A stretch of 64,000 nt of DNA from the human T2T-CHM13v2.0 reference genome, Homo sapiens (GCF_009914755.1 NC_060933.1); one strand, 5' to 3'; positions 15,277 through 51,215 are shown, numbered from the stretch's first letter. The notes: generated from the sequence alone by a model not told the origin. Program-made: numbers and translations.

Positions 15277-16310
15277 GTTAGAGCCAAGATGGCTGAACAG
15301 GAACAGCTCCAGTCTACAGCTCCGAGTGTGAGTGACGCAGAAGACGGGTGATTTCTGCATTTCTATCTGAGGTACCGGGTTCATCTCACTAGGGAGTGCT
15401 AGACAGTGGGCACAGGACAGTGGGTGCAGCCCACCATGCATGAGCTGAAGCAGGGCGAGGCATTGCCTCACTCGGGAAGCGCAAGGGGTCAGGGAGTTCC
15501 CTTTCCTAGTCAAAGAAAGGGATGACAGACGGCACCTGGAAAAACGGGTCACTCCCACCCTAATACTGCGCTTTTCTGACGGGCTTAAAAAATGGCGCAC
15601 CAGGAGCTTATATCCCGCACATGGCTCGGAGGGTCCTATGCCCACGGAGTCTCACTGATTGCTAGCACAGCAGCCTGAGATCAAACTGCAAGGTGGCAGC
15701 GACGCTGGGGGAGGGGTGCCCACCATTGCCCAGGCTTGCTTAGGTAAACAAAGCAGCTGGGAAGCTCAAGCTGGATGGAACCCACCACAGCTCAAGGAGG
15801 CCTGCCTGCCTCTGTAGGCTCCACCTTTGGGGACAGGGCACAGACAAACAAAAAGACAGCAGTAACCTCTGCAGACTTAAATGTCCCTGTCTGACAGCTT
15901 TGAAGAGAGCAGTTGTTTTCCCAGCACGTAGCTGGAGATCTGAGAACGGGCAGACTGCCTCCTCAAGTGGATCCCAGACCCCTGACCCCCAAGCAGCCTA
16001 ACTGGGAGGCACCCCCTGGTAGGGGCAGACTGACACCTCACATGGCTGGGTATTCCTCTGAGACAAAACTTCCAGAGGAACGATCAGGCAGCAGCATTCG
16101 CGATTCACGAAAATCCACAGTTCTGCAGCCACCGCTGCTGATACCCAGGGAAACAGGGACTGGAGTGGACCTTTAGCAAACTCCAACAGACCAGCAGCTG
16201 AGGGTCCTGTCTGTTAGAAGGAAAACTAACAAACAGAAAGGACATCCACACCAAAAAACCCATCTGTACATCACCATCATCAAAGACCAAAAGTAGATAA
16301 AACCAAAAAG
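15277..16310 (+). promoter_or_regulatory. L1 5'UTR internal promoter
   Basis: YY1-type CAAGATGGC at the start, splice donor CTGAG|GTACC at 15371/15372, and a retained ~129-bp segment at 16057-16184. Confidence 0.85.
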
Positions 16311-17327
16311 ATGGGGGAAAAACAGAGCAGAAAAACTGGAAACTCTAAAAAGCAGAGCGCCTCTCCTGCTCCAAAGGAAGGCAGTTTGTCACCAGCAACG
16401 GAACAAAGCTGGACGGAGAATGACTTTGACGAGTTGAGAGAAGAAGGCTTCAGACGATCAAACTACTCCGAGATACAGGAGGAAATTCTAACCAAAGGCA
16501 AAGAGGTTGAAAACCTTGAAAAAAATTTAGATGAATGTATAACTAGAATAACCAATACAGAGAAGTGCTTAAAGGAGCTGATGGAGATGAAAGCCAAGGC
16601 TCAAGAACTACTTGGAGAATGCAGAAGCCTCAGGAGCCGATGCGATCAACTGGAAGTAAGGGTATCAGCGATGGAAGATGAAATGAATGAAATGAAGTGA
16701 GAAGGGAAGTTTAGAGAAAAAAGAATAAAAAGAAACGAACAAAGCCTCCAAGAAATATGGGACTATGTGAAAAGACCAAATTTACGTCTGATTGGTGTAC
16801 CTGAAAGTGACGGGGAGAATGGAACCAAGTTGGAAAACACTCTGCAGGATATTATCCAGGAGAACTTCCCCAATCTAGCAAGGCAGGCCAACATTCAGAT
16901 TCAGGAAATACAGAGAACGCCACAAAGATACTCCTCGAGAAGAGCAACTCCAAGGCACATAATTGTCAGATTCACCAAAGTAGAAATCAAAGAAAAAATG
17001 TTAAGGGCAGGCAGAGAGAAAGGTCGGGTTACCCACAAAGGGAAGCCCATCAGACTAACAGCTCATCTCTTGGCAGAAACCCTACAAGCCAGAAGAGAGT
17101 GGGGGCCAATATTCAACATTCTTAAAGAAAAGAATTTTCAACCCAGATTTTCATATCCAGCCAAACTAAGCTTCATAAGTGAAAGAGAAATAAAATCCTT
17201 TACAGACAAGCAAATGCTGAGAAATTTTGTCACCACCGGGCATGCCCTACAAGAGTTCCTGAAGGAAGCACTAAACATGGAAAGGAACAGCTGGTACCAG
17301 CCACTGCAAAATCATGCCAAATTGTAA
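16311..17327 (+). pseudogene. L1 ORF1p pseudogene with one premature stop
   Basis: MGEKQSRK...QNHAKL, with an in-frame TGA at 16698-16700 (probably CGA>TGA CpG decay). Confidence 0.95.
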
Positions 17328-17390
17328 AGACCATTGAGGCTAGGAAGAAACTGCATCAACTAATGAGCAAAATAACCAGCTAACATCATA

Positions 17391-21196
<3,806 letters not shown>

Positions 21197-21689
21197 ACAA
21201 TGAGAACACATGGACACAGGAAGGGGAACATCACACACCGGGGCCTGTTGTGGGGTGGGGGGAGGGGACAGGATAGCATTAGGAGATACACCTAATGCTA
21301 AATGACGAGTTAATGGGTGCAGCACACCAGCATGGCATATGTATACATATGTAACTAACCTGCACATTGTGCACATGTACCCTAAAACTTAAAGTATAAT
21401 AACAATAATAATAATAAATTGAGAGATTTATAAAATGGTATCATATATCAGTCTACATAGCTTCTGTGAGTTCCCAGATTTTCATTTTCATTCATTCATT
21501 CGTGCTGTCTCTCTCTTTCTCTTTCTCCTTCTCTCTCTTCATTCATCCATCCTTTTATTCCGGCCCTGGTATTCTCACCCATGCTTACCCTTGAAAAATC
21601 CAAGTAGTTTTATTATTTTAATATTCTGACTGCAACTGTGCTAACAACAATAATAGCAGCGTTCCCCTGCCACATCTTTCATTTCTATG

Positions 21690-21840
21690 ATAATCCTGTA
21701 AGACAGACAAGGCAAGGACCACTGTCTCCGTTTTACAGGCAAGGAAACAGTCTTTTAGACATCCCAAATCAGTTATGATATTCTCATAAGAAGTTAAGAT
21801 TAGAACCTTGGTCTTATTCTGAGCCCAGTGCACTCTTCTT
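21690..21840 (-). mobile_element. MIR SINE
   Basis: AATCCTGTAAGA...CTCCGTTTTACAGGCAAGGAAACAG core. Confidence 0.65.
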
Positions 21841-21879
21841 TTCAACAAGTTCTCAAGTCATCATCTCTGTGAAGCCACA

Positions 21880-22440
21880 ATATGTACAGTCATTGAAGCA
21901 AGTAAGATTTCTAAGGAAAGAGTTCAGCTGTGTGAGGAAATGAGGGATTCCAAAATGGGGCCCTAAGAAATGTCAGCATTTACAAATCAGCTATAAGAGA
22001 GAGACACTTACAATGGATTCTGAGATAAAGTGGCCAGAAAAGTAGGAGGAAAACCAAAAAAGAGGGGTATCATAGGAACCAAAAGAAGAGAATGCTCTAA
22101 AACTAAAATGGTGGTCTACTGGATTTCATCATTCTGAAAAATTTACTAGGAAGAAGTCAGAGCAGATTCACTGGATACAGCAACATGAAGATCATTGATG
22201 ATCTGGGAAGAACAATTTCATTGGAGCACTTGGGGAGGAAGCCATATAAAGATGAGTTGAAGAATGAATGGGATATGAAGACTTGAAAATAACACTTGCA
22301 GACATCTTGGGGAGAAGTATAACAGATAAACAAGGTGGTAACTGGAGGGACATGCTACTTTACGGAGGATTTTTAAATTTGAGATCAGATTTGTTACAGC
22401 AAGTTTGAGTGCAATTGAGGAGATAGGATATGCAGGAGGA
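21880..22440 (-). mobile_element. L2 LINE fragment
   Basis: Purine-rich antisense L2 motif GCCAGAAAAGTAGGAGGAAAACCA...CATAGGAACCAA. Confidence 0.7.
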
Positions 22441-22486
22441 ATTGATTGAAGGCTTTTAAAATTTATTTTCAGTATCATTTTATTAA

Positions 22487-22491
<5 letters not shown>

Positions 22492-22526
<35 letters not shown>
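22492..22526. repeat. (CT)n microsatellite
   Basis: Direct CT run. Confidence 0.95.
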
Positions 22527-22528
<2 letters not shown>

Positions 22529-22816
22529 AGGTTCCTAGTGTGTTATTGCTTTTATGATGTCTCCTTGAAAGCCTAGCTGCAATCCACAAAAGCCAGCTTA
22601 CCTACCCTCAGTTCAAACCTTAACCCCTCTCACACTTCACTTTTGTCCCAATTATGGTATTCTTTTTCCCAAAAACCAATTTTTCTCTCTCCAATCACAA
22701 AGGAAGACTTTCAGTCCAACAAATTTAGAGCAAACTCAGAGTGGTAATTCAATTTATGTCATTTTTCAAAGGATATTAACATTTTTAAAGAGCTAAAATG
22801 GGAATAGTAATCACCC

Positions 22817-23395
22817 TGTATAATAATTTTTTATTGCTTCTTAACAAATTAACACAAATTTAGCAGCTTAAAACAACACCTGTTTATCATCTCACAGTTT
22901 CTGTAGGTCAGTAGTCTAGCATGGCACAGCTGGTTTCTCTGCTTAGGGTGTCATAGGGCCAAAATGAAGGTGTTGGCCAGCTGGGCTCTCATCGGAAGGC
23001 TCTTGGAAGGAAAGAACTCTAATCTCATTCAGGTTATTGGCAGAATTCGGATCTTGCAGTTGTAGAACTGAGGTCCTCATCTCCTTGCTGGCCATCACCC
23101 AAGGGCTATTCTCAGCTTCTGGAGGCCACAGGCATTTCTTGGCACATTGTTTCTACTCTCTCTAAACACAGGGATGGCATGTCGAATTGTCTCATGCTTT
23201 GAATCTCTGAATTCCCTTTCTGCTAACAGAGAAAAAGCAGCTTTCAGCGGCCTGGACTGATTAGCTCAAGCCCACTCGTGTACTCTCCACATCTTAAGAG
23301 AGATATATAATTGGCTTAAATGCCTTCTCAGCAGTACCTGGATTAGTGTTTGGTTGAGCAACCAGAGGATGGGAATCTGGGGAGTCATCTCCTAT
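22817..23395 (-). mobile_element. MaLR LTR (MLT1E-like)
   Basis: ACAAATTTAGCAGCTTAAAACAACAC...TCTCACAGTTTCTGTAGGTCAG and GCAGTTGTAGAACTGAGGTCC motifs. Confidence 0.8.
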
Positions 23396-23505
23396 ACCCT
23401 GGAACTAAAGAATCTTCTGAGTTCTTCAAGGAATCTCTCCACCATACCTATAGCCACCTGTGATAGACACTGCTCTATCCACAGCTCCCAGGCAGCCATG
23501 TTTTT

Positions 23506-23837
<332 letters not shown>

Positions 23838-24077
23838 TAGCCATGTTTTTATTATGTGACATCAGAGCCATCCCCCTACTACAGCTTACTGAACTAAGTG
23901 TGACTCCCTGACCCATGGAGCACACTCAGCCTCTTTTAACTTTCAGTTCTTAGTCCTAGTCCTTCAAAAAACACATTTGTAGGTGCTGCCCATGAGTTAG
24001 GTAAAATAAGTTAGTGTTTTGCCCTGTTGTGGAAGCCAGTTTGGGCAGGTGTTCATTACTTGAAACCCAAAGACCAC

Positions 24078-24180
24078 TAGATGATGGGTTGATAGGTACA
24101 GCAAACCACCGTGGCACATGTATACCTATGTAAAAAACCTGCATATTCTGCACATGTATCCCAGAACTTAAAATAAAAAA
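24078..24180 (+). mobile_element. Very short 5'-truncated L1PA (PA8-10-like) 3' end
   Basis: TAGATGATGGGTTGATAGGT...CACATGTATCCCAGAACTTAAAATAAAAAA. Confidence 0.9.
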
Positions 24181-24739
24181 TGAGTGGCTAATGGATCTGA
24201 AAACTGTTATTGGATTCACATTACTGGAGACTATCACCTGTGTGACATACCAGTTGAGCTACAGGGCTAAACTGAGAAATCAGGAAAAGAGACCATCAAA
24301 GATGATCCTGATTAAAACCACTGTTATGCCAGGGTGACTTTGTGTATATCCAAGATGTGTCTTCTGAGAAGTGAAATCAGGGAGGTGTATATTCTTCACT
24401 GCGATAATCCAGCCAGGTTAATAAATAAACAACTAAAGAACATCAGAAAGGCCTGGGGATGAGTAAAGAAATTAGAATCCAAATATGCCAACTTATATTA
24501 TCTAAATGTAAATTTTCAGTAAAACGTGCCAAAAAAAAAAGAGACAGAGAAACCAGGGCATTGTTAGTGACACCCTCAGGTCCAACCACTCATTTATTTA
24601 TTTCAAGAATCTTTAGCAAATTTTATGTCCAAGGCATCCTCTTAAGTAAACATTAGGAAAGAAAAGAAAACCGTATCTGGCTTGAGGAAAGCTATCACCC
24701 TGAAGTTGCAGGGAATCATTATGTTTTGGAGAGTGAGGA

Positions 24740-25173
24740 AGACTGATTGAAATGATAGCCAGGTAATGTCCTTCCTGTGTCTTCCTGTGTCTGCTCCTAC
24801 TGTGACATTTGGCTCAATCACATGACTTGCCTGGACCAATAGGATGCTAGCCGACTTGACAGATGCAGAGGCCTGGGAAAGGGCAACACATTTTTGGTTT
24901 CTCTTTTGGAACCCTGCAGCCACAAGAAAAAAAACCCAAGCAGTCCAGGGGAGGATGAGAGATAACACGAGGTAGAGCTGAGCCAACCCAGCCCTGGATG
25001 GACCCACCAGCCCCCAGCCAACCTGACAGCTGCACACAGACACATGAGTAAGTCCCATGCAGATCAGTGAACTACCCACCCAACCCACAGATTTGCAAAA
25101 TAATAATAGATGAGTGCTGTTTTCAGGCACTAAGTTTTGGGGTGTTTTGTTATGCACCAATAGATACGTGATA
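24740..25173 (+). mobile_element. MaLR LTR (MLT1G/H-like)
   Basis: CACATGACTTGCCTGGACCAATAGGATG...CACTAAGTTTTGGGGTGTTTTGTTATGCA...GATACA. Confidence 0.8.
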
Positions 25174-25201
25174 CAGAGAGAACAAAAGTAACTTCAGAAC
25201 T

Positions 25202-25239
25202 ACGGGCCAGATATTTTCTAACGGGCCAGATATTTTCTA
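25202..25239. repeat. Perfect 19-bp tandem duplication
   Basis: ACGGGCCAGATATTTTCTA repeated twice. Confidence 0.97.
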
Positions 25240-25979
25240 ATTTGGAGAGAAGGGAAAATCAGTTGCCTAAGATTTATGGCTTTATTCAATTGAGAGAATT
25301 CAAAGGTAAAGGGGCCTCAACTGCTTCAAATGCCGCCCAGCTCTCCCTCTGTTCAGATTTTAACAAATTTGCCAGCCTTTTCTGGCATCCATATCAGGTC
25401 ATTTAATTAAGTAATAGAAAGGTAATTAAGACCGAAATATGATTATTTGGGTTAGTCTTGTGCACCCACAGAGGAAGAAAAGCAGAATGTGCCAGCTGCA
25501 AACATCTGCAGTGAAAGAAGTCTGGGACAAAAAGCAGTTTCTGCTCTTGCCTCCTGTTCTTTCAGAAAACACCAGTCTTCTAGGGCAGTAAATTAGTAGT
25601 GAGTCACTAGCTGTATAATACGTGCTGCTTGTCTCATGAGACATTAAACCGAGGTCCCTTCTGCTCACATCGTGCACCTGTCACCAAATGTCCAATAAAA
25701 ATCCTGTTCTCTGAGGGCATGTCAGGAAGGAGCAGGGCAAAGACTTGCCCAAGCCTTCCTCAGCAGTCCAGGAGAGCCCCCAGGCAAGGTACTCCCTGTG
25801 GCCTGCCCCAAGGCTGAGTCATCAGAGGCCCTCATCCGCAAATCCCACCTGATCTATGGCTGCTGGCAATCACACACAGAGAAATGAATGCCAAATAAGG
25901 GCTGTGTGTGACACACTCAAGTTTACTCCCTCTCCGAGGTGGTCTGGGGAATTTCTGAGGTAGATCTCACCTAGGTAGT

Positions 25980-26200
25980 GGGGAAGAATGGGCATGGGCC
26001 AGAAGTCAGGAGACTTGGTTTCAAAGCTTTTGTCATGTAGTCAGTGTGTGACCTGAGACAAGATTCCCAACTTCCCAGATGGCTCTCCTGCATTATCTCC
26101 TGTAAAATAGGGACAGTGATAGCTGTTTGCCAACCTCACACATCAGCCTTAATTTTTTTTTACACTGGATAATGTATGGGAAAGGGGGCTTGAAATGGTA
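25980..26200 (+). mobile_element. MIR SINE
   Basis: GAAGTCAGGAGAC...TGTGTGACCTGAGACAAG...CTGTAAAATAGGGA. Confidence 0.7.
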
Positions 26201-26249
26201 AGAAGCATTCAAAATTTGACATTCTCATTCTCGAGTTATGTGATGTAAA

Positions 26250-27150
26250 AGCATAATGTCTAGGGCTAGGTGACCTGAATTTAAGCCTCTGCCTCTTACT
26301 GACTGCGTGACCTTGAGCAGGCTACTTAGTTCAACTTTCGTCATCTGCAAAATGTGGCTGCTATAACAATACTTCTAAAAGTTTTGAGGATTAGGGTTGG
26401 TTCCAAGTCTTTGCTATTGTGAATAATGCCGCAACAAACATACGTGTGCATGTGTCTTTATAGCAGCATGATTTATAGTGCTTTGGGTATATACCCAGTA
26501 ATGGGATGGCTGGGTCAAATGGTATTTCTAGTTCTAGATCCCTGAGGAGTCGCCACACTGACTTCCACAATGGTTGCACTAGTTTACGGTCCCACCAACA
26601 GTGTGAAAGCATTCCTATTTCTCCACATCCTCTCAACCCAAATGTCCATCAATGGTAGACTGGATTAAGAAAATGTGGCACATGTACACCATGGAATACT
26701 ATGCAGCCATAAAAAATGATGAGTTCATGTCCTTTGTAGGGACATGGATGAAATTGGAAATCATCATTCTCAGTAAACTGTCGCAAGAACAAAAAACCAA
26801 ACACCGCATGTTCTCACTCATAGGTGGGAATTGAACAATGAGAACACTTGGACACAGGAAGGGGGACATCACACTCTGGGGACTGTGGTGGGGTGGGGGG
26901 AGGGTGGAGGGATAGCATTAGGAGATATACCTAATGCTAGATGACGAGTTAGTGGGTGCAGCGCACCAGCATGGCACATGTATACATATGTAACTAACCT
27001 GCACAATGTGCACATGTACCCTAAAACTTAAAGTATAAAAAAAATTAAAAAAAAACAGTTTTGAGGATTAAATAGATTGTGGGTAAAGCCATCAGGAAAG
27101 TGAGTAGAACACAGTGGCGAACAGTACATGTTCATGCATTATTATAATTT
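26250..27150 (+). mobile_element. MIR split by the L1 insertion (26250-26393 and 27071-27150)
   Basis: CTGCGTGACCTTGAGCAGG...TCATCTGCAAAATG...TTTTGAGGATTA, resuming as AATAGAT...GTAAAGC after the L1. Confidence 0.75.
26394..27056 (+). mobile_element. 5'-truncated, 5'-inverted L1PA2-like insertion
   Basis: 26394-26633 is antisense ORF2 end and 26634-27056 is the sense 3' end plus poly(A). 14-bp TSD AGTTTTGAGGATTA at 26380-26393 and 27057-27070. Confidence 0.96.
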
Positions 27151-27392
27151 TATTGTTGTTTTCATTATCATGAATCTCTACTCTGTACCCATGGCATTTC
27201 TACTTACAAATAGGTACATATTTGGATTTATATTCCAGATCTTCAGCTTCTGAATCCTATAACCTGGGAAACTATTGAACTTACCTGTTTTTTTTCTCAC
27301 CTGCCCAGTGATGGCACAGAGAGGATTAAGTGACACTGTCCATATAAAGTACCTGGAACACACACTAGTGCAATATTATTTGCCTTCCTTTT

Positions 27393-27857
27393 TTCTTCTT
27401 TTGAGATTTTAAAAACAACAACATAACAACATTTACCATTATAACCATTTCCAAATGTGTAGTTCAGTAGTATTAGAGCATTTTCACTTTTTCATCTAGT
27501 AAAACGGAAACTGTAAACCCACTCAACATGAATGCCTTGTTCCCTCCTCCCTGCAGTTCCTGGTAACCACCGTTCTCTTTGCTTCCATAAATCTGACTAC
27601 TCTTGATACCTCACTGAATGGTATCTTATAGTGTTTATTCTTTTGTGACTGGCCTATTTCATTTAGCATAATATTCTCAAGGTTCATCCACGTCATAATA
27701 TGTGACTGGATTTCCTTCCCTCTTAAGACTGAATAATATGCCATTGTACGTTTATACTGCATTTTATTTATACATTCATCCATTGATAGACATTTGGGTT
27801 GCTTCCACTTCTTGTCTATTGTGAATAATCTCACTGCTATGAGCATGGGTGTGTAGC
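27393..27857 (-). mobile_element. L1MA/L1MB 3' end
   Basis: Antisense L1M 3' region (ORF-track peptide KWKQPKCLSMDECINK). TSD TGCCTTCCTTTT at 27381-27392 and 27858-27869. Confidence 0.88.
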
Positions 27858-28339
27858 TGCCTTCCTTTTATCCCCTATGCTGATGCAAATAATTGAATGA
27901 CAGGCAGGTACAGTTCCTTTCATGTTTGCCTCTTCATGGTCAAGGCAAATTAATCTTGAATATCACTAGCATTATGGATGTTATGTTTCTCAAGTTGATT
28001 TCCTAATATGGAAATTAATATTTTCTGTATTAATTTATTAGCATGCTTCTATGATAATATTTCAACATTAATATTGACGTTCTTAACATTTCAACGTGGA
28101 ATTAACAGAAGTGAAAGAAAGGAAGCAAAATGGAAAGAAAAACACTCATTCTGCATTTATATGTTTATTACCAGAGGCATAGTTGGCTGTTGGCTCCTAC
28201 TATGTGGTTGGTATTCAGGGAGATAAAAACAGTCAGATTTTCTTCAAACCTACACTCATCTATATTGTTAACGGAGGTGAGTAATTTTCAACACCATCCT
28301 TCCAAAAGTACAGCTCACTTCTGACTTCTTGTTTCATAT

Positions 28340-28630
28340 CTCAGCTCGGTGTAACTTCCTCTGGGAAGGGCCTTCAGACCCCAACTGAGGTCAGAGTCCT
28401 TTGGTTTATGTTCTCATAGAACTGTGCTCCTTTTCTTCAGGACACATCTCAGTTTTACTTGGAAGTTTACTACTGCAAATTTTGGTGAACATTTGTCTCC
28501 CCTATTAAATTGTACATTCTCTCAAAGCTGGGACATTGTCTATTTTTACTCCCTCTTAAATCCCCTGCTCCTTGTCTGGTGCATAGCAGACACTCAACAA
28601 ATACTGCTAATAAACCCCAAGTGAATGAAG
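28340..28630 (+). mobile_element. L2 3' end
   Basis: TCTCAGCTC...CTTCCTCTGGGAAG...GCATAGCAGACACTCAACAAATACT...GTGAATGAA. Confidence 0.7.
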
Positions 28631-36425: not shown

Positions 36426-38981
36426 TGTCTCTGTCTGTTCAGGCTGCTATAACAAAGTATCTTAGATGCAGTAATTTATAAAGAACAGAAATTTATTTCT
36501 CACAGTTCTAGGGGCTGGGAAGTCCAAAATCAGGGCACCAACAGATTCAGTGTCTGGTGAAGGCTTGTTCTCTCCTTCCAAAATGGTCCCTTGCTACTGT
36601 GTCTTCATATAGTGGAAAAGCAGAGGGGTGAAAGAGGTAAACACACTTCCTCAAGCCATTTTATAAGGGCGCTAATTCCCACTCACGAGGGCTCTGAGCT
36701 CAGGACTGAGTCACCTCCTAAAGGCACCACTTTTTTAATACTATTGCATTAGGGATTAAGTTTCAACTTGAACTTTGAAGGGACACAGACGTTCAAATTA
36801 TAGGATTTTGTTCCTGCCCCATCCCCCCATGTATGTCCTTCTCACATACAAAATACATTCATTACATCCCAACAGACCCAAGGCCTTAGCTCATTCCAGC
36901 ATCAATTTTAAGGTTAAAGTCCAAAATCTCACCTGAATAACATCTAAATCAGATATGGGTGATACTTAAGGTATGATTCATCCTGCAACAAATTCCCCCT
37001 CCAGCTGTAAGCCTGTGAAATCGAAAAAGTTATGTGCTTTCAAAATACAATAGTTGGGACAAACATAGGATAGGTATTTTCATTCCAAAAGGGTGAAATA
37101 GGCAAGAAGAAAGGGGTAACAGTTCCCACATAAGTCCAAAAGCCAACAAGGCAAAAACTACTAAATCTTGAGGCATGAGAATAATCTTTTTGAGTCCATG
37201 TTCCACCTTCTGAACACACTGAGGCAGAGGCTGGGCTCCCAAGGCTCTGAGCAGCCCTGCCCTATGGCTTTTCTGGGTGTAGCCCACGCAATAACTCTCA
37301 TGAGTTGTAGTCACATGCCTGCAGCTCTCCTGGGGTGGAGTTACAATGTTAGTGGCTCTCCTAGTTTGATGTCTGCATGTTGGTCCTGTCCACATGGCTG
37401 CACTAGTTGTTGCCCTAATGGGGGGTTTCTGTAGTGGCCCTGACCTCACAGCTCCTCTGGGCATTGCCCTAGCGGGTATTCTCTGTGGCGGCCCCACACC
37501 CAAGACTACAGTAGGCATTGGCCTAGTGAAGGCTCTCTGTGGTGGCCCCAACCCCACAACTCCTGCACTCTGCACACCTACAGAGTTAGCACTACATGCC
37601 TGCCATGGAAGTTTATGGCCTCCACCTTCCAGAGGGGAGGCGATGGCAGGATGCACTGCACCTGGGCCCACTGGAGTCACACCTGGGGCAGCCAAAGCAC
37701 ATGGCTCCAGAATGTGTGAAGCAGAAACCTGAGGTAGTTCTGGGCAGTAATCTCTGAGGTCCTATGGGCATGCTGGGCCCCTCCCTGAAAATGTTCTGTC
37801 CTCAAGGTCCTAGCACTCTGGGTTTATGATGAAAATGGCTGCCTTGAAGATCTCCAAAAATGTCTTTGGGGTCATTCTTCCATTGTCTTGACGAATAATA
37901 TCTGACCTTCTTCTGTCCTTACTAGTCTTTTTATCAAACACTTACTTGGCTATAACTTTGGTGTTCTCTCCTGGGCATGCTTTTTCATTCTTAACATGGC
38001 CAGAATGAAAATTTTTAAATCTTTAAGTTCTGCTTCCCTTCAATTATAAATTTCATCTTTGTTTCTCTCTTTATTTTTTTTTCTGTAAGCAGTCACAAGA
38101 AGCTATGCTTCACCTTTAACACTTTGCTGAGAGATTTCTTCTGCCAAATATCCAATTATATGTTGCCATTAGTTTTAATGGCAAAAACCACAATTACTTT
38201 TGCACCAACTAATAGATTTCTTTTAAGTTCTGCTTGCACAAGTATCTAGGACATAAACACAATTCAGCCAAGTTCTTTGCCTCTTCATAACAAAGATAGC
38301 CTTTCTTCCAGTTTGTAATAGCATGTTCCTTATTTTTATGTGAGACCTCATTGAAATGGCCTTTGTTATCCATATTTCTACCAACATTCTAATCATAATC
38401 ACTTAAGTAATCTCCAAGAAGATTGAGGCTCTGTCTACAGCTCTCTTCTTCTGAGCACTGACCAGAATGCCCCTTTATGATCCGTTCATGGCGATATGGG
38501 ATTTTTGTAGCCTGCTCTTCGAAATACTTTCAGCCTCTGCCCATTACCCAGTTCTAAAGCAGCTTCCACATGTTTAGGTATTTGTTACAACAGCACTCAA
38601 GTTTTTGGTACCATTTTCTGTCTCAGTGCATTTGGGCTACTATAAAGAAATAACTTAGAATGGGTAATTTATGATACAAATTTATTTCTCACAGTCCTGG
38701 AGTCTGGGAAGTCCAAGATCAAGGTGCCAGCAGATTTGGTGTCTGATAAAGGCTTGTTCTCTGCTTCCAAAGTGGCATATTGTTGCTGTGTTGTTAGGTG
38801 GAAAGGCAAAAGAGGCAAACAGATTCCCTTAAGCCTTTTCATAAGGTCACTACACCTGTTCATGAGTGCAGAGCCCTCATGACATAATCTCCTCTTAAAT
38901 ACTCCACCTCTTAATAGTAATGCTTTGGGGATTAAATTTCAACATGAATTTTGGAGGGACACGAACATTCAAACCATAGCA
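36426..38981 (-). mobile_element. Complete MaLR element: MLT1A LTR (36426 to about 36803), internal region, MLT1A LTR (about 38619-38981)
   Basis: Two homologous LTRs (GCT(G/A)CTATAA...GGGAAGTCCAA...) flank MST/MLT1A-type internal sequence. 5-bp TSD CAAGC (36421-36425) and CAAAC (38982-38986). Confidence 0.9.
38163..38212. mobile_element. MADE1 (Hsmar1-derived MITE), truncated
   Basis: TTGCCATTAGTTTTAATGGCAAAAACCACAATTACTTTTGCACCAACTAA. Confidence 0.9.
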
Positions 38982-41397
38982 CAAACCTTCAATTATAGAG
39001 CCATTAGTGGTCCTCCCAGCATTGCATTGCTATAGTCTCCCAATAACTTTTATTCTATAACCAGTAAGTTCTAAGAGTCTCACAAGAGAATATTCTGATT
39101 TCAGACTACTCCTTTCTGCCCTGCTGTACAACGTTAGGAAACTGCCCCCATTTTTCCCTGACAACCCAGCAAAATTGATATCTCCAGCTAGCACCACATG
39201 CTGCTTTTCCTTAAGCATTAGGTATATAGCATTATTGCTAATTGGTATAAGAAGCCCAAGGTGCCCAGGGAGTATCCTCAACTTCCAGTTGATTGCAATT
39301 ATTACTGTGCCACTAGTGGAAACACGCCTTCCTTGGGAATTTATATCTTTGAGTTAGAGAGCCCAAAGCTACAACAACAGGAAGCAAATGATTTTGGGGT
39401 AGGTTATTAGAAGATAACAGATAAGGGCACTTTTACCCCTTTGTTCTAAGAATTGTATATATTAGCTATAGGAAAAACTGTGCCATTACTGGTTGCTGAC
39501 TCAAGAAAACGTATGGAGTCATATTACATTTTCCCAGATTCACAACTGTGCATGCACCATAGCAGGGTCATCAGTAGGTTGTTCCACTCTTCTACTAGAT
39601 CAGTTACATTGGGGTTACAGGCTAGACAGAATCAGTTGCTATCATAGTTGTGTATCTACTATTTTGCTATAAAGTGAGTTTCTTGGCCAGAAGTAATGTC
39701 AAGTGTAATACCTTGATGATGCAAAAGATATTCAGTAATTCTACAGATGAAGTTTCTGGTAAAATCACTGCATGGAGAGTAAGCAAATAACTTGTAGAGT
39801 AAGTGTTTATTCTAGTAAGTAAAAATTGCAGATTTATTTATGATAGTGCATTTTAATTAAATTACTCGACACCAAAGGATTGGCTAGTCTAGTCTCCCCT
39901 AGGAATGACACTATATCGAGCACTCATGTTGTCTCTGCTGTTGACATTTTGGGCACTCAACAGTGACTGTTAATCCATGTTGTTAAGCCCATTCATTAAC
40001 TTTAACTTCCATGCTTCCTGCCAAGGCCACTTTGTTCATAAACCCATGGCTAGAGAAAGAGACTTTACTGGAACCCACAGGAAAATCTATCTTGTCCACT
40101 TGATTAACAGGAGACTCCTTTTGAAGGAAAGCTTTTTGTGAGCATTCGCATGGGTACAAATGTTCTCATGCCTTATGTCGATTCTGAGATTATTCCATCT
40201 ATGTACTTCTTCCTTAGTTTTCCATGTCGGTGCTCCTCAAATGCACTCCCTTTGACCATCTGGCCAAACCATTAGTCAGTGCCCATAAATTGCCATAAAT
40301 TTTTACATTTGTATATCTATCCATCTAGGTAAAAATAACAAGTATATGCACTACTAAAAGTTCTGCTGAAAGTATTTCCTTTCCATCATTATCTTTCAGG
40401 GTCATCTCAGAATATCCCCATAAAACTGAAGTGGTCCAATTTGGAGTTGTAACAGCATTTTATGTGGAATTATCTGTGTAAAACAGGCCTAAGTTTGTTC
40501 TCTCTTACAACTGTTGATGTGAAATTCTGTGTATGGATTAAGGAAGAAGTGACTGTGCAATAATAGTAGGTACCATAAGAGTCAGCTGCCTGTACATGAA
40601 CTTACTTGTGAATTCATTTCCTGCTAAAATCCAGTTTCATATATAGCACTTCCATTTGATGTTGAAAGTTTGTTACACATGCCCAAATTTATGTCTTGGT
40701 AGAGTATACCATACCAAGTTCACAAGGTGTAACTCAGGTGGCATAGTTACTTGGTGTTGTAAGGTCAGTTGTACAGTATTCTTTAGGGCTTAGCAGAAAG
40801 CCATTACTGTGCTTCCAAAATGAGAATAATTCTTTGCAAAACAGGACATGGATTTCTTTCCAAATTCTAGAGTTACACTTTGTAATTTTTCTCATTAGGA
40901 TTACCAAAGACACCGTGTCAAAACCACATGAATCATAGAAAATTATATTACAATTGAATCTGATGGTCATATGGCTAAAATGGAAAATCAGCTTTCACTG
41001 GACCTGCCACAAAACTTCCTCTTGCTCTGGGCTCTAGTCACAACTGGCAACTGGGTAAACACTCAGTAAATGAGTAGAATAGCAGAAGATCTTCACTAAT
41101 TATTCTAATTCTATCTTAGCAGTAGGAGGTACAAAGTACAATGATTTGTCTTTCTCTTTAAACAGGATCTCTCAACATTCCTCAGATTCCTGGACTCCTA
41201 GAAACCTCACTGAGGTAGCAGGCCCCTGAATTTTCATAGGATCTTTTTTACCACCCTCTAATATTTATATAATACTTCACAAATTCACTTTGAGTATTTG
41301 TTACTTCCAGGTTTAACCAGCCTTGTTATCTATTTAGTGGACCAGTGTGACACTCTATATGAGATGGTGATGTGATCAAAGTCACTTTAGACAAGAT

Positions 41398-41528
41398 CAG
41401 TCCTTCTCAAACTTTAATGTGCATAGAAAAATTCAGTAGGTCTGCAATAAGAACTGAGTTTCTGCATTTCTAACAATCTGCCAGGTGACGGTAACACAGC
41501 TGATCTGCAGATCACACTTTGAGTAGAA
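41398..41528. mobile_element. MER5A/B hAT-Charlie element inside the ERV-L
   Basis: TTCTCAAACTTTAATGTGCATA...TGCATTTCTAACAA...CCAGGTGA...CACACTTTGAGTAG. Confidence 0.8.
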
Positions 41529-43802
41529 AAAGACTGGTTTCTGTGGGAGGGCCAGAAAGTTGACATACCCCTGAGGAAAGTCAATAATGGTATAATGCTG
41601 TCTCTTCCAAGTGAAAGCAAACTGCTTCTGGTGATTCTGCCTACTAGTATAGAGAAGAAAGCATATGCCAAATCAATATCTGCTTATCAGTTTGCAAGGT
41701 TTATACTGGATGTGCCCCAGTAAATAGGCCACAGTTGGAATTGTAAATGCAATTGGAGTCACTGCCTGATTAAGTTTGTGATAATATACTTTTATTCTCC
41801 AAGAGCATTCCATCTTTTGCACGAGCTAAATAAGGAGACAAAAGAGAATGTAATAGCAATCATCACCCTGCAAATCTTTGGTAGTGGAACTAATCTCTGC
41901 ATCTCCTTCAAGAAAGCATTAACATTTTTTATTTATTGTTTTGCTAGAAAATGCATTCCAGGTGGTTCCACTTGGCCTTTCCTACCATAATAGCCCTCAT
42001 TGCATGGCTGAGGTGGTAACCAGAGTATTCAATGTGTATACTGTGCCGGTTGCAGAGTATACCTGCCTCTTCCTTCTATGCATTTAGTAAATGGGAAAAT
42101 AGCTACAGAGTCGGGTTGTAGATTCCCTGGTCTTACTCAAAATTGACTCAGGCTTAAACTTTATTTATCAACTGACTTTCCTAAGCCCCTGATATATCAG
42201 ATCCACAAATATGAGTGTTTGCATTAGTTTATAAGCAGTACACTGTGATCTCTGAAAAGTCTAGGTATTTCTATTTATCCGGTATAGAGCCACCACCCTG
42301 ATAAATAGCCACTTTGGGGAAATGCTTGGAGGGAGATACATAGGTCATACTCGCGGCAGTCTTGTACAGTTTTTCTTCAAGGATCCCAGGCTTACCCTTT
42401 ATTCAAAAAGCTCTGTCTGTACTGCCTCTAGTTTGGGACTTGAATGGAGTTGTGATTTTCTTCTTTGGTGTCTAAAGTCAGATCATTATTAGGACTAGAG
42501 GAGTTTTTTTTTCCTGCTGCTTACATAAATTATGTATATCTTTCTAAGACTGTTTGTCTTCTTTAGTCATAGAGACATTGTGACCACTGCAAAAGATTTC
42601 TAAAGGCTGCATCAGACCATTCTGAATATGGTTGTAGACCTGTTATCTGTTGCACAAATGTTGACCATCTCATAGGCACTTAAGCCCTGCTACTTAGCCA
42701 TCTCCCACTGCTGGTTGCCATGATCCGCCATTGAAATCAAGGAGCCTTTTTCAGGGACTGTATCTCTCACCATAATTCCTGGTTCACAGAGGAAAACCAC
42801 ACAAATCTTTCAAGGATCCTGTTGCTACCCTTCTCACTGCATTTCTTAATACCGTAGTGAAAAGTATGTCCTCTAACCCTCCAGAGAGCACAGTAATGGT
42901 GGGCTGTGTGTGAGAACTGATATGATAAATCAGCTTTATCGTTCTGATCTTCATAGACGTCGGACCTCTTCTCTACATCCTACCAAGAAGTTCTAACAAT
43001 TCAAACCTCACAGGAAGAAGGCTAATATTCAATTTTATTTCACTTAAATAATTAAGCAAAGGATTGAATACTAGCTTCCTGAGATAACACACTGAATGCA
43101 AAATCTCCACTAAGTGCACCCACATTGATACATTATTTCTTTTCCCCTTCTCTTGTACTCTTAAAATCCATTTATCTGTACATTCCCTAAGTTCTGCCAA
43201 AAGAAATAGGCAACATTCTTCTTTCAGTGGATATGATACCTCTTCCAGAATCAGGCTTTATAACCATCTGTCTGGAATCTGTCAGGATTTGTCTCAGGTT
43301 ATGAGTCTGGAAGCAAAGAGAAGTGGTGGTCATGAGTGTTAAGGATTATTGGAATCCCCTTGCAAGGCAACTATTTCAAATGAAGTCCTTAAAAATGTCT
43401 TTCAGCAAGGGAAGGCTAACATTCGTAGTGACCTCTGGGTGGTAAGGCCAGTGATCACAAATGCATTCATGGAAACACAGGGAGTCAAGTCAATCAGCCC
43501 CATTTATCCTGGGGCCTCAGACAGACATGCCTTACTTACGAAAATGACATTAAGAGCCTCCTTGTCGTGTAGCTAAAATTTGCATACTTTGAAAAAATGA
43601 ATATTTAAATGCTATGTATTCATTTAGTACTAGGTGTTGGTAATGTTTGTCATTGATTTCACTATTAAAATTTTAATTATATAATAATTATCTAACCTAA
43701 AGCATGGTAAAGCAAAGAGAAGAAAATGTACCAATTACTTATATAGATTTATTTTGCTTTTAAATTTATTTCATTTGCAGTTTCTTTTGAGCATTCCTCT
43801 AA

Positions 43803-44167
<365 letters not shown>

Positions 44168-44385
44168 TCTTTTTTTTTTTTAATTTAAGTTTTAGGGTAC
44201 ATGTGCACAACGTGCATGTTTGTTATGTATGTATACATGTGCTATGTTGGTGTGCTGCACCCAGTAACTCGTCATTTAACATTAGGTATATATATCTCCT
44301 AATGCTATCCCTCCCCACTCCCCCCACCCCACAACACGCCCCGGTGTGTGATGTTCCCCTTTCTGTGTCCATGTGTTCTCGTTGT

Positions 44386-48212
<3,827 letters not shown>

Positions 48213-48275
48213 TACGATGTTAGCTGGTTATTTTGCTCATTAGTTGATGCAGTTTCTTCCTAGCCTCGATGGTCT

Positions 48276-49222
48276 TTACAATTTGGCATGTTTTTGCAGT
48301 GGCTGGTACCAGTTGTTCCTTTCCATGTTTAGTGCTTCCTTCAGGAACTCTTTTAGGGCATGCCTGGTGGTGACAAAATCTCTCAGCATTTGCTTGTCTG
48401 TAAAGGATTTTATTTCTCCTTCACTTATGAAGCTTAGTTTGGCTGGACATGAAATTCTGGGTTGAAAATTCTTTTCTTTAAGAATGTTGAATATTGGCCC
48501 CCACTCTCTTCTGGCTTGTACAGTTTCTGCCAGGAGATCCGCTCTTAGTCTGATGGGCTTCCCTTTGTGGGTAACCCGACCTTTCTCTCTGGCTGCCCTT
48601 AACACTTTTTCCTTCATTTCTACTTTGGTGAATCTGACAATTATGTGTTTTGGAGTTGCTCTTCTCGAGGAGTATCTTTGTGGCATTCTCTGTATTTCCT
48701 GAATCTGAATGTTGGCCTACCTTGCTAGATTGGGGAAGTTCTCCTGGATAATATCCTCCAGAGTGTTTTCCAACTTGGTTCCATTCTCCCCGTCACTTTC
48801 AGGTACACCAATCAGATGTAGATTTGGTCTTTTCACATAGTCCCATATTTCTTGGAGGCTTTGTTCATTTCTTTTTATTCTTTTTTCTCTAAACTTCTCT
48901 TCTTCATTTCATTCACTTGATCTTCCATCACTGATACCCTTTCTTCCAGTTGATCGAATTGGCTACTGAGGCTTGTGCATTCGTCACATAGTTCTCATGC
49001 CTTGGTTTTCAGCTCCATCAGGTCCTTTAAGGACTTCTCTGCATTGGTTATTCTAGCTAGCCATTCATCTAATTTTTTTTCAAAGTTTTTAACTTCTTTG
49101 CCATGGGTTCGAACTTCCTCCTTTAGCTCGGATTAGTTTGATCGTCTGAAGCCTTCTTCTCTCAACTCGTCAAAGTTATTCTCCATCCAGCTTTGTTCCA
49201 TTGCTGGTGAGGAGCTACGTTC
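48276..49222 (-). pseudogene. L1 ORF1p pseudogene lacking codons 1-22
   Basis: Begins at the splice junction (ERSSSPAMEQSWMEN...) and ends ...QKHAKL, with internal lesions. Confidence 0.92.
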
Positions 49223-51215
49223 CTCAGTTGGAAATGCAGAAATCACCCGTCTTCTGCATCACTCATGCTGGGAGCTGTAGACTGGAGCTGTTCCTATTCG
49301 GCCGTCTTGGCTCCCAGACCTGTCTTCTTTCTCTCCCCACTAACAGGATAGGACCTGATTCAATGAACTTCATTTCAAAGCTAGTGGAAAAACCTGGTTT
49401 TTCATAGATTTACATAGAAGAGCTCAAACTTGATATGTCTTGATGACTAGTGAAGAAATTTTTATTTAATTTTTAAGTATTCCAATAAAATATTTTAAAT
49501 ATTATATTAAGAAATAGTAAATAATATAATCATATTTAAATGTGTATGAACACATGTGGTCATACTGTCGACCAGGATTTCTTCTGGGGAAGCATAAACA
49601 GTCATCATTTAAGCTACTATTTAAATTATTTTAAGATTAACTTCCAAACAGAACAACATTAAAAAGCCTAATTCTCACCTGCATAACGTTGCTCTGGAAA
49701 TCACTGTCTCCATTTAAGAAGTGCTTCTATTTAGCAAGAATTTTTTAAAAAGTGCCAATGTTTAATTCTCTAGACACGAACCATCAAATGTATATGTATG
49801 TCCCAAATAAGGTGGCAACTTCACCGAAGCCAGTTTTTTAGCTTGTATATGGTTTACAATAGAATGCTAATTCTCTTGACATTAATGCATGTTTATTTAT
49901 ATGCAACCAAAAATGATTGAAAATAAAAAGTGTCGAGTAATAAATTATGTGAAATAGACATATTGAAAAAGTGAAATGATATAAAACTGCATATAAAAAA
50001 TAATCACAGCATTTTTTCTAAATGGATGCCTGATTGGTTTTATACTCTCCCTGAAGATTTTCCTTCAGCCTCGAAGGATAAATTACACAAAAAGGCCAAG
50101 TTTACATTAATCTGCAAGCTGACATTTTTATAATAAAAAGAGAAAAATGTTTAAGTAGTACTAAGTGTTGGTCAGAGTGTCAAAAAGCAGCAGACTAGAA
50201 AAGGAGGGTTGAAGTTCCATCTTCTTTAATTTGTGCAGGCAGAAACCAGGAAATTTAAAACTAAAAACTATATTCTGCTAGTGAACATTGCTTATAAATA
50301 ATAATAATAATAGTCAGCCCTTCAGAACAAATTTAGTCTGTCTTAAAGTCATCTACATTTAGTTGATGAATTAGCTGCATGATTTATTAATAACCCCTAT
50401 GGATAAACTTGGGCCAGGGATTCAGAAATTTGGGGAAGGGCATTAACTTGTGTGTAGGTCTAGCTCTTTGTAGACACCGGTTATGTTTTAATGGCTGGAA
50501 GAATCATTGCCAAAATCATCGAGAGTACAAAAATGCACATCTAATGGCTCAACATCTAATGGCCCCACTTATGACCATGAGTTCTAGCTATCAAAGAAAA
50601 TACAAGCAATCAGGAAAGATTTAACCACCTCACCTGTGATCTATCTGTCCCTGTATCTCTATTGCCTGACAGCTGTCCTGTGAGTAAGTGTAAACTGTAC
50701 ACATACCTAACTAACGTCAACCCATCCCATCTCCTTTCAGCGGCTCAAGGACATGACTCCAGCAATTGCCTCTTCTCTCCTGCATCTTGATTCTATCCTT
50801 TCTGTGAGATCATCTGCATAAATTCAAAACATCCTGTCATATCTGCATCTTTCAAAAATCCCCTTTTGGCCCCACATTCCTCCCAAGGTTCTGCCCATTT
50901 TTCTATTCTTCTGTATAACAAAACTTCTCAGAAGAGTTACCTGTGTTCAGTGTCTTTACATACTCATCTCCTATTGTCTCTTGAGCCCTTCCCTTTGGGA
51001 CTTTGTGTCCATCTCTCCCAAACAGCTCTTGTCAAGACAGTTCAAGGCCTCTTTGCTGCCAAATCCAAAGGAAAGTTCTTAGGCCTGTTTGCATCAGTCT
51101 CCTGAGCGCTGTACACCTGGTCTCTCCCTCCTACAAGGTGCCCTCTTTTTCCTTGGTTTCTAAGGCCCTGTTCTCAGAGGTTCCCATCTGTCAGGCTGGC
51201 CCCTCCTTCTAATGC

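What the first reader, a model, noticed from the sequence alone, without database searches (positions are those of the whole stretch)
15277..49320. Two inverted LINE-1s about 23 kb apart share non-consensus mutations, including the same ORF2 stop: gene conversion and a candidate recurrent inversion locus
Seen in sequence: L1-A (+) and L1-B (-) differ strongly at the start of ORF1 and in the 3'UTR (A: ACAGGAGGAAATTCTAACCAAAGGC; B: AAAGGAGGAAGTTCGAACCCATGGC), and each has its own TSD pair, so they are independent insertions. In the middle, both carry the same nonsense codon ...ACATCACAA-TGA-AAAGAA (A 18352-18354, B 47250-47252). They also share GACTTTCAACC (A ~17638, B ~47956), CTCATGGGCAGA (A ~17526, B ~48066), CAGGTGCACC (A ~17746, B ~47848), [20 protein letters not shown] (A ~19267, B ~46310), AAAAACTACATG, ATGGAGAAAGCTGAAACTGCATCCC (A ~20202, B ~45361) and CAAACACATTT (A ~20544, B ~45033). 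Established knowledge, from my memory of the consensus: these sites read TTA, TTTAAACC, GGAGCACC, TATGAC and CTGGATCCC in L1PA consensus, and a stop codon cannot be a subfamily diagnostic. Inference: sequence was exchanged between the two copies after insertion, in patches. This is the footprint expected of inverted repeats that pair repeatedly and can flip the intervening ~22.7 kb (21416-44167). Matched TSD pairs suggest this haplotype is in the ancestral orientation.
Basis: partly seen in the sequence, partly recalled or inferred. Interest (0 to 1): 0.85.

Follow-up and report, generated by a model that had tools for sequence, protein, structure and literature searches.

The report
Patchy gene conversion between inverted L1s
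Two old, broken LINE-1 copies lying in opposite orientation about 23 kb apart on human chromosome 9 appear to have copied short stretches of sequence from one another after they inserted, which is a known process; whether the DNA between them ever flips could not be tested.

Summary
L1-A (+, 15277-21416) and L1-B (-, 44168-49320) are separate insertions with their own target-site duplications. They are of different L1PA types: they differ at 19 of 55 type-diagnostic sites.

They share 13 variants that are rare in 58 unlinked copies. No unlinked partner shares more than 3 with A or B. None of the 14 rare sites examined is a CpG transition. They lie in locally low-divergence patches, including a 232-bp perfect match. 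In 17466-17930 A and B are sister copies (support 0.98). In A 17560-18070 each is the other's best match genome-wide. Elsewhere B is among A's most distant relatives. A carries markers of B's own sub-lineage only inside such patches. This points to patchy, probably two-way, gene conversion (confidence 0.8).

The shared TGA stop occurs in 174 of 7,247 L1 copies (2.4%), so it is poor evidence alone. The "recurrent inversion" claim is untested. This haplotype has matched duplications, the pair is only 93.5% identical, and no inversion call for the locus turned up in the little I could search.

This is a new instance of a known process. Interest is modest.

The parts
15277..21416 (+). L1-A: full-length, decayed L1PA copy of an intermediate (younger) type, with 5'UTR, ORF1, ORF2 and poly(A)
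   Evidence: Pfam finds ORF1 domains at 16701-17324, the endonuclease at 17634-18107 and RVT_1 at 19168-20127. There are many stops.
15270..15276 (.). 5' target-site duplication of A (AATTGAG)
   Evidence: Read. It matches 21417-21423. At 7 bp it is weak on its own.
21417..21423 (.). 3' target-site duplication of A
44168..49320 (-). L1-B: older-type L1PA copy with about 1 kb missing internally (equivalent of A 15376-16374; junction near 49219-49224)
   Evidence: Pfam finds RVT_1 at 45901-47088, the endonuclease at 47253-47903 and ORF1 at 48279-48716.
43870..44167 (-). Alu inserted in B's poly(A) tail, inside B's target-site duplication
   Evidence: Read. The Alu name rests on my recognition of the sequence, not on a tool.
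43858..43869 (.). Target-site duplication of B (TGTCTTCTTTCT), 3' side
   Evidence: It matches 49321-49332.
49321..49332 (.). Target-site duplication of B, 5' side
17466..17930 (+). Main converted stretch in A (ORF2 endonuclease region). It is 98.5% identical to B (7 differences in 465), against 93.8% over the other 4,552 aligned sites. It holds the shared rare sites 17532G, 17644C, 17750T and 17859G.
   Evidence: In the segment tree A and B are sisters with support 0.981.
17699..17930 (+). Longest perfect A=B match, 232 bp (B 47673-47904). It ends one base before 17931, a marker that B shares with L061 and A lacks.
   Evidence: Only 4 of 737 unlinked pairs with identity 0.95 or less have a run this long.
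47673..48137 (-). B counterpart of the main converted stretch
   Evidence: Exact-string mapping of the runs. A is B's best non-self hit for 47534-48043.
18328..18398 (+). 71-bp identical patch holding the shared TGA (18352-18354) and 18366G. B counterpart is 47206-47276.
   Evidence: The TGA is in 2.4% of copies genome-wide.
19130..19341 (+). Two short identical patches (19130-19165 and 19260-19341) holding 19153T and 19274T
   Evidence: The 19274T 25-mer has 13 places genome-wide.
20170..20638 (+). Patches 20170-20235 (20205G, 20221C), 20310-20393 (20321T), 20512-20579 (20550C) and 20581-20638 (20587A). Here A nests within B's sub-lineage.
   Evidence: In the segment tree A and B are sisters next to L061 and L063, support 0.846.
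16956..17289 (+). Short patches holding 16982A, 17242A and 17256T
   Evidence: In the segment tree for 16950-17465 A and B are sisters, support 0.84.
21424..43857 (.). Interval between the two elements. It is the segment that a crossover between A and B would invert. It holds other L1 fragments and the RefSeq enhancer features listed by the hub.
   Evidence: and the hub annotation. No orientation test was possible.

Best explanation
A and B are two independent L1PA insertions of different age classes. They landed 23 kb apart in opposite orientation. Afterwards they exchanged sequence several times by non-reciprocal (ectopic, interlocus) gene conversion.

The likely mechanism is as follows. A break or nick in one copy was repaired using the nearby inverted copy as template, by synthesis-dependent strand annealing or heteroduplex repair, without crossover. 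This left short tracts, tens to a few hundred bp long, in which the recipient took on the donor's private and lineage-specific variants. The orientation of the interval was left unchanged.

At least three patches went from B to A. Several sites suggest A to B as well.

What is shown: the pair-specific sharing, the mosaic relationship, and independent insertion. What is inferred: the repair mechanism, the number of events and their dates.
For: 1. Independent origin. The two elements have different target-site duplications. At 19 of 55 sites that separate the older from the younger panel group, A has the younger state and B the older. These sites are interleaved with the shared rare sites.

2. 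Pair-specific sharing. A and B share 13 states that at most one other copy carries, in 4,661 sites. Among 1,719 other pairs the median is 0 and the 99th percentile is 0.97 per kb. A with any of 58 copies shares at most 3, and B at most 3. Of the 14 rare sites, none is a CpG transition and 10 are transversions (contexts).

3. Rarity checked genome-wide. 17750T is in 15 of 6,024 copies. 19274T has 13 places. 20205G+20221C has 8 places. These three lists overlap only at A and B. The one unlinked copy with both 17644C and 19274T (L064) lacks 17750T, 17859G, 19153T and TGA.

4. Mosaic relationship. In 300-bp windows B ranks 1 of 51 at 17577 (0.990, against a panel maximum of 0.970). It ranks 57 of 58 at 18477, 51 of 53 at 19677 and 29 of 30 at 20877. 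Segment trees put A and B as sisters in 17466-17930 (0.981), 16950-17465 (0.84) and 20170-20640 (0.846). They are not sisters in the other four segments.

5. Genome-wide nearest neighbours. B is the best non-self hit of A 17560-18070, at 855 bits against a next-best 827 (40 of 1,353 candidates scored). A is the best non-self hit of the matching stretch of B, at 855 against 849.

6. Direction. B and L061, an older-type copy, share 8 rare markers. A has only 4 of them (17532G, 20205G, 20221C, 20550C), each inside an A=B patch. The marker at 17931 sits one base beyond the 232-bp perfect run. Conversely, B carries the A-type state at 16898, 17561, 18636, 20136 and 20321, where L061 and L063 (covered at four of the five sites, not at 16898) and most older-type copies do not; at 20136 the older-type copies are split 2 and 2.

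7. Tract signature. Rare shared sites have 3.2 A-B differences within 50 bp on either side, against 5.6 for random identical sites (P = 0.0015). Only 4 of 737 comparably diverged unlinked pairs have a perfect run of 232 bp or more.
Against: At least eight separate short patches are needed. That means either many events or patchy mismatch repair of longer heteroduplex.

Outside 17466-17930, A-B identity at 300-bp scale is not raised.

Several 'rare' variants are not private to the pair. 17644C is in 108 copies, 20205G+20221C in 8, and TGA in 174. Scarcity in the panel therefore overstated their rarity.

The panel was not random. L002-L030 were picked by likeness to A around the stop, and L032-L060 by likeness to the whole of A. 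The A-type reference set is only 7 copies, with 3 to 7 covering any one site.

The tree segments were chosen after the patches had been seen.

My A-coordinate mapping ignores bases inserted in B. As a result two of the 'identical runs' (17605-17681 and 20512-20579) are interrupted in B.

Only one haplotype was available, with no outgroup and no read-level check.
Confidence: 0.8

Rival explanations
1. A and B are sibling progeny of one rare L1 source lineage. The shared variants were inherited from that source and not exchanged after insertion.
For: Small sub-lineages with some of these markers do exist. 20205G+20221C is in 8 copies and 17644C in 108. L061 shares 17532G and 20550C as well.
Against: A and B differ at 19 of 55 type-diagnostic sites, interleaved with the shared sites. 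A carries only 4 of the 8 markers that B shares with L061. Differences are not spread evenly, as shown by the 232-bp perfect run and the local-divergence test. Two specific siblings landing within 30 kb of each other by chance has odds of about 2 in 100,000 (my arithmetic for a 3.1-Gb genome).
Confidence: 0.06
2. A was already a mosaic when it inserted. Its source RNA or cDNA was a recombinant, by template switching, between a B-like lineage and a younger lineage.
For: This would give the same mosaic of type states and B-lineage markers in A. Recombinant L1s are screened for in a recent pangenome preprint (methods passage of PMC13192797).
Against: It needs eight or more switches. It does not explain the B-side sites where B carries A-type states. 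It does not explain why the donor lineage's only other carrier of 17750T+19274T+19153T is the copy 23 kb away.
Confidence: 0.05
3. Assembly or polishing artefact. Reads from one copy were used to correct the other in T2T-CHM13.
For: None from my calls.
Against: The copies differ at about 6% of sites and by a 1-kb deletion, and each has unique flanks. Patches as short as 26-80 bp flanked by retained differences are not what collapse of long reads gives. This is inference.
Confidence: 0.03
4. Independent parallel mutation at hypermutable sites.
For: TGA is at 2.4% genome-wide, about ten times the 0.25% of 17750T, so at least that site recurs or is inherited. Several other A=B states at about 20% in the panel are CpG transitions.
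Against: None of the 14 rare shared sites is a CpG transition. With single-site frequencies of about 0.1 to 2.4%, chance sharing of ten or more is negligible. No unlinked pair involving A or B exceeds 3.
Confidence: 0.01
5. The patches are reciprocal swaps left by two successive inversions whose crossovers fell at different points. This would be direct evidence of toggling.
For: Inverted L1 pairs do mediate inversions of this size. One example is HsInv0341, 20.8 kb between 6.2-kb L1PA3 copies (table in PMC3961182).
Against: A reciprocal swap exchanges segments and does not make the copies alike. Here the patches are regions of raised identity. There is no block where A is older-type while B is younger-type.
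Confidence: 0.03

Closest known systems
Interlocus (ectopic) gene conversion between dispersed retrotransposon copies, best documented for Alu
   Same: Non-reciprocal transfer of short tracts between nearby, similar, independently inserted repeats. It is detected as variants shared out of keeping with subfamily descent.
   Different: Here the partners are 5-6 kb L1s in inverted orientation, about 6% diverged, with many short patches and both directions. For the Alu literature I saw only a search listing and the start of an abstract (PMC8230782). That nearby copies convert more often is recalled, not read. My searches listed no paper that describes this locus.
Human inversions mediated by inverted L1 pairs (NAHR), e.g. 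HsInv0341
   Same: The architecture matches: two inverted L1PA copies, about 6 kb each, flanking about 20 kb (table of PMC3961182). There were 22 L1-flanked balanced inversions in 41 genomes (passage of 10.1101/2021.12.20.472354).
   Different: Those pairs are mostly more alike: median 97.2% with 21 of 22 above 90%, and median 97.1% (PMC9675761). This pair is 93.5% alike with a longest perfect match of 232 bp. No inverted allele is known to me for this locus. This haplotype shows no chimeric elements.
Arm-to-arm gene conversion in palindromes and inverted segmental duplications
   Same: Inverted repeats on one chromatid pair and convert without necessarily flipping the spacer.
   Different: Palindrome arms arise by duplication and are kept nearly identical. 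Here the arms are unrelated insertions and conversion covers only a minority of their length. This comparison is from recall.

Membership tests
LINE-1 (L1PA) retrotransposon | ORF1 (trimerisation, RRM-like and CTD domains) followed by ORF2 with an APE-type endonuclease and a reverse transcriptase | tested here: met
   Pfam finds Transposase_22, Tnp_22_dsRBD, Tnp_22_trimer, Exo_endo_phos and RVT_1 in both copies.
LINE-1 (L1PA) retrotransposon | Poly(A) tail and flanking target-site duplication (target-primed reverse transcription) | tested here: met
   A has a 7-bp AATTGAG pair. B has a 12-bp TGTCTTCTTTCT pair enclosing B plus an Alu in its tail.
LINE-1 (L1PA) retrotransposon | Named subfamily (L1PA3, PA4 and so on) by diagnostic positions of a reference library | not testable with these tools
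   No L1 library was on hand. I assigned only relative types (B older, A intermediate) from 58 genomic copies.
Interlocus gene conversion | Partners are of independent origin, not a duplication | tested here: met
   They have different duplications and flanks, B has a deletion, and 19 of 55 diagnostic sites differ.
Interlocus gene conversion | An excess of derived variants shared only by the pair | tested here: met
   13 in 4,661 sites, against at most 3 for A or B with any of 58 unlinked copies.
Interlocus gene conversion | Phylogenetic discordance along the sequence, with tracts of raised identity | tested here: met
   Window ranks run from 1 of 51 to 57 of 58. Segment trees are, the 232-bp run, and the local-divergence test. 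The segments were chosen post hoc.
Interlocus gene conversion | A pre-conversion state seen in an outgroup or in other haplotypes | not testable with these tools
   Only one human genome was held, and no ape assemblies.
NAHR-mediated (recurrent) inversion locus | Inverted repeats flanking the segment | tested here: met
NAHR-mediated (recurrent) inversion locus | High identity of the repeats, as in known L1-mediated inversions (medians about 97%) | tested here: not met
   Overall identity is 93.5-93.7%. Only 17466-17930 reaches 98.5%. The comparison values come from passages.
NAHR-mediated (recurrent) inversion locus | Both orientations seen in a population or between species, on several haplotype backgrounds | not testable with these tools
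   One haplotype only. The supplement look-ups were partial. The PMC9675761 rows seen have no chr9 entry between 0.87 and 6.7 Mb. The PMC12350169 file has no id chr9-173.. to chr9-178.. with 7 digits, but the file was cut when stored. PMC9563103 is not held.
NAHR-mediated (recurrent) inversion locus | Chimeric repeats with swapped target-site duplication halves in the inverted allele | tested here: not met
   In this haplotype each element has its own matched pair. There is no swapped type block.

The most novel reading that the evidence does not exclude
The many short patches in both directions are the footprint of repeated pairing of the two L1s. On this reading the pair is a live inversion-toggling site. 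The 22.4-kb interval, which holds RefSeq-annotated enhancer elements inside an lncRNA intron, exists in both orientations among humans or apes. A 232-bp perfect match created by conversion now serves as the crossover substrate, so conversion would be raising the inversion risk of an otherwise too-diverged pair.
Probability: 0.1. Interest if true: 0.5.

Novelty: new member of a known kind. Interest (0 to 1): 0.3.

Why it matters
It gives a clean, checkable example of old, dead L1 copies still exchanging sequence with a neighbour. This has three practical consequences.
- Subfamily and age calls for such copies are distorted.
- Shared "derived" variants in nearby repeats cannot be read as common descent.
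- Conversion can create stretches of perfect identity in a pair that is otherwise too diverged for homologous crossover.

A shared nonsense codon in L1 is not by itself a sign of exchange, because this one sits in 2.4% of copies. There is no gene nearby, so no direct functional consequence is expected.

Tried and rejected
1. The TGA as a decisive marker: rejected. It is in 13 of 29 unlinked loci picked by likeness around the stop (a biased sample). It is in 0 of 26 covered loci picked by whole-length likeness. Genome-wide it is in 174 of 7,247 copies.

2. Whole-length identity as a sign of exchange: no signal. A-B identity (93.5%) lies within the 92.4-95.1% range of A with unlinked copies. Seven unlinked full-length copies score 7,633-7,813 bits against B, compared with 7,507 bits for A-B in my own blastn. 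The two scoring schemes may differ.

3. A hidden multi-copy lineage carrying all the shared variants: looked for and not found. This used four genome-wide word searches and four fetched copies, L061-L064.

4. A TGA-bearing lineage. There is only weak linkage of TGA to 17603A/17604G and an indel near 18059. This is unresolved.

5. Orientation polymorphism in print. The searches and look-ups gave nothing for chr9 at 1.75-1.79 Mb. This is far from a complete search. bioRxiv supplements were closed, the Cell 2022 inversion paper is not held, and one supplement file was cut when stored.

6. A paper on shared L1 ORF2 stops. Passages of PMC4176336 mention no recurrent stop position.

7. Earlier findings of this scan were not open to the session.

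As a result the panel has few older-type copies covering the 3' third.


Full report
**What is there**

The window is human chr9:1,736,001-1,800,000 of T2T-CHM13 (hub note). A scan for inverted repeats finds a series of colinear arms between 16375-21405 and 44172-49224.

L1-A (+, 15277-21416) is full length. L1-B (-, 44168-49320) keeps about 95 bp of the 5' end and then lacks the equivalent of A 15376-16374.

Pfam finds the L1 ORF1 domains, the endonuclease and the reverse transcriptase in both copies. Both ORF2 frames are broken many times.

A is flanked by AATTGAG (15270-15276 and 21417-21423). B is flanked by TGTCTTCTTTCT (43858-43869 and 49321-49332), and that pair also encloses an Alu sitting in B's poly(A).

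In this haplotype each element has its own matched duplication. This means no net crossover has occurred between them.

**The comparison set**

The window's genome could be searched. I fetched 58 unlinked L1 loci:
- L002-L030 were picked by likeness to A over 201 bp around the stop.
- L032-L060 were picked by likeness to the whole of A.

I mapped all of them, and B, onto A's coordinates. I later added four more copies, L061-L064.

A limitation of the mapping is that bases inserted relative to A are ignored.

**Overall likeness is ordinary**

A and B are 93.5-93.7% identical. This lies inside the 92.4-95.1% range of A with unlinked copies. Seven unlinked full-length copies score at least as well against B as A does (the scoring schemes may differ).

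**The stop codon**

TGA at 18352-18354 (A) and 47250-47252 (B) is real and in frame. It is not special to this pair:
- 13 of 29 unlinked loci chosen around it carry it. This sample is biased, because the query carried TGA.
- 0 of 26 covered loci chosen by whole-length likeness carry it.
- Genome-wide the exact 26-mer with TGA occurs 174 times, out of 7,247 for TGA or TTA, which is 2.4%.
- It occurs on all three L1 types of my panel.

**The other shared variants are a strong signal**

Of 5,031 aligned sites, A and B differ at 294. They share 13 states that at most one other copy carries (16982A, 17242A, 17256T, 17532G, 17644C, 17750T, 19153T, 19274T, 20205G, 20221C, 20550C, 20587A, 20840T). 17859G is present in 2 of 52.

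Among 1,719 other pairs the median is 0 and the 99th percentile is 0.97 per kb. A with any unlinked copy shares at most 3, and so does B. A-B stands at 2.79 per kb. The only pair as high is L005-L006, itself an inverted pair 20 kb apart on another chromosome.

None of the 14 is a CpG transition, and ten are transversions (contexts).

Genome-wide counts:
- 17750T is in 15 of 6,024 copies.
- 19274T has 13 places.
- 20205G+20221C has 8 places.
- 17644C has 108 places.

The 17750T, 19274T and 20205G+20221C lists share only A and B. One X-linked copy has 17644C and 19274T but none of 17750T, 17859G, 19153T or TGA, and it is of a younger type.

**Not siblings**

The panel falls into an older group, a younger group and intermediates. 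At 55 sites where the older and younger groups differ:
- B has the older state at 49 sites.
- A has the pattern of natural intermediates such as L012 and L051.
- At 19 sites A is younger-type and B is older-type, interleaved with the shared rare sites.

A common source cannot give both patterns at once.

**Mosaic relationship**

In 300-bp windows B is the closest of all copies to A at 17577-17876 (0.990, against a panel maximum of 0.970; rank 1 of 51). It is also closest at 16977 (rank 1 of 50). Yet it is among the most distant at 18477 (57 of 58), 19677 (51 of 53) and 20877 (29 of 30).

Genome-wide, B is the best non-self match of A 17560-18070, at 855 bits against 827 for the next (40 of 1,353 candidates scored). 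A is the best non-self match of the same stretch of B, though narrowly, at 855 against 849.

17466-17930 has 7 differences in 465 sites (98.5%), against 93.8% over the other 4,552 aligned sites. It contains a 232-bp perfect match, 17699-17930 = 47673-47904. Only 4 of 737 unlinked pairs with identity of 0.95 or less have a run that long.

Rare shared sites sit in locally less diverged DNA. They have 3.2 differences within 50 bp on either side, against 5.6 for random identical sites (P = 0.0015). Their mean identical run is 79 bp against 46 (P = 0.018).

| Segment | A and B in the FastTree tree |
|---|---|
| 17466-17930 | sisters, support 0.981 |
| 16950-17465 | sisters, support 0.84 |
| 20170-20640 | sisters, support 0.846; L061 and L063 are among the nearest copies to both |
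| the other four segments | smallest clade holding both has 7, 13, 14 or all 60 tips |

I chose the segments after seeing the patches.

**Direction**

The 8-copy group with 20205G+20221C consists, in the three copies I could fetch, of older-type elements like B.

B and L061 share eight rare markers (17532, 17931, 18518, 19892, 20205, 20221, 20550, 20893). A has four of them, each inside an A=B patch, and lacks the other four. 17931 lies one base past the 232-bp run. This is what transfer from B to A in patches predicts.

The asymmetry of the two genome-wide searches agrees. So does the fact that several of B's best matches in that stretch carry 17644C.

In the other direction, B carries the A-type state at 16898, 17561, 18636, 20136 and 20321. 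L061 and L063 do not at the four of these sites they cover (they do not reach 16898). Older-type copies mostly do not either, though at 20136 they are split 2 and 2. Exchange probably ran both ways. The A-type reference there is only 3 to 7 copies.

**Mechanism and rivals**

The best reading is repeated non-crossover repair between the two inverted copies, giving short tracts (confidence 0.8).

- Common descent fails on the diagnostic sites.
- A pre-insertion recombinant source would need many switches and an unexplained coincidence of location.
- Parallel mutation fails on the site types and frequencies.
- Reciprocal swaps from two inversions would not raise identity, and no swapped block is seen.
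- An assembly artefact could not be examined, but does not fit patches of 26-80 bp between retained differences.

**Inversion claim**

Inverted L1 pairs do mediate human inversions of this size. Examples are HsInv0341 (table in PMC3961182) and 22 L1-flanked balanced inversions (passages of 10.1101/2021.12.20.472354).

Those pairs are usually about 97% alike. This pair is 93.5% alike, although conversion has made one 232-bp perfect stretch.

I found no call for this locus in what I could search. That search was partial. bioRxiv supplements were closed, the Cell 2022 paper is not held, and one file was cut when stored. The claim stays open, and I put it at about 0.1.

**Verdict**

Gene conversion is supported. 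The stop-codon argument is downgraded. Inversion recurrence is untested. This is a new instance of a known process, of modest interest.

Noticed in passing
window 18352-18354; genome-wide lists: The ORF2 nonsense allele TGA (majority TTA) is in 174 of 7,247 L1 copies (2.4%). That is about ten times the 0.25% measured for another transversion, 17750T. It occurs on older, intermediate and younger types, with only weak linkage to 17603A/17604G and an indel near 18059. It may be a hot spot, or lineages that spread despite a truncated ORF2. This is unexplained.
   Followed up: partly
G000 places listed; L005/L006 = C4:68278681 (+) and C4:68299256 (-): Carriers of rare L1 variants often come as close pairs, mostly inverted and 3-37 kb apart. 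Examples are C3:67184099/67202379, C2:45068559/45083199, C5:50042770/50056202, C5:86123631/86144297, C6:7796794/7815709, C11:18993375/18996495 and C24:18336325/18356241. By my arithmetic, chance expects well under one such pair per list. L005-L006 are 98.7% alike with 8 shared rare sites. These could be segmental duplications or conversion. I did not separate the two.
   Followed up: no
L061 = G000:C9:1934080-1938080, about 150 kb beyond B, same strand as B: The closest relative of B's sub-lineage that I found (8 shared rare markers) lies only 150 kb away on the same chromosome, out of 8 genome copies carrying the 20205G+20221C word. This could be chance, long-range conversion or local history. 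I did not examine it.
   Followed up: partly
window 43870-44167: An Alu (minus strand) sits in B's poly(A) tail, inside B's 12-bp target-site duplication.
   Followed up: partly
window 29851-30865 and 26374-27044: There are further L1 3' fragments inside the interval. One has two adjacent arms in opposite orientation. 29851-30252 matches A 20170-20571 inverted, and 30274-30865 matches B inverted, so it is on the plus strand. This is the layout expected of a 5'-inverted (twin-primed) insertion.
   Followed up: no
L032 and L034-L037 (C22, C14, C3, C21, C15): One L1 copy recurs at 99.4-99.6% identity on four chromosomes (L034-L037), with a fifth copy (L032) at about 98.8%. These are presumably copies within segmental duplications, so they are not independent members of the panel.
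   Followed up: no
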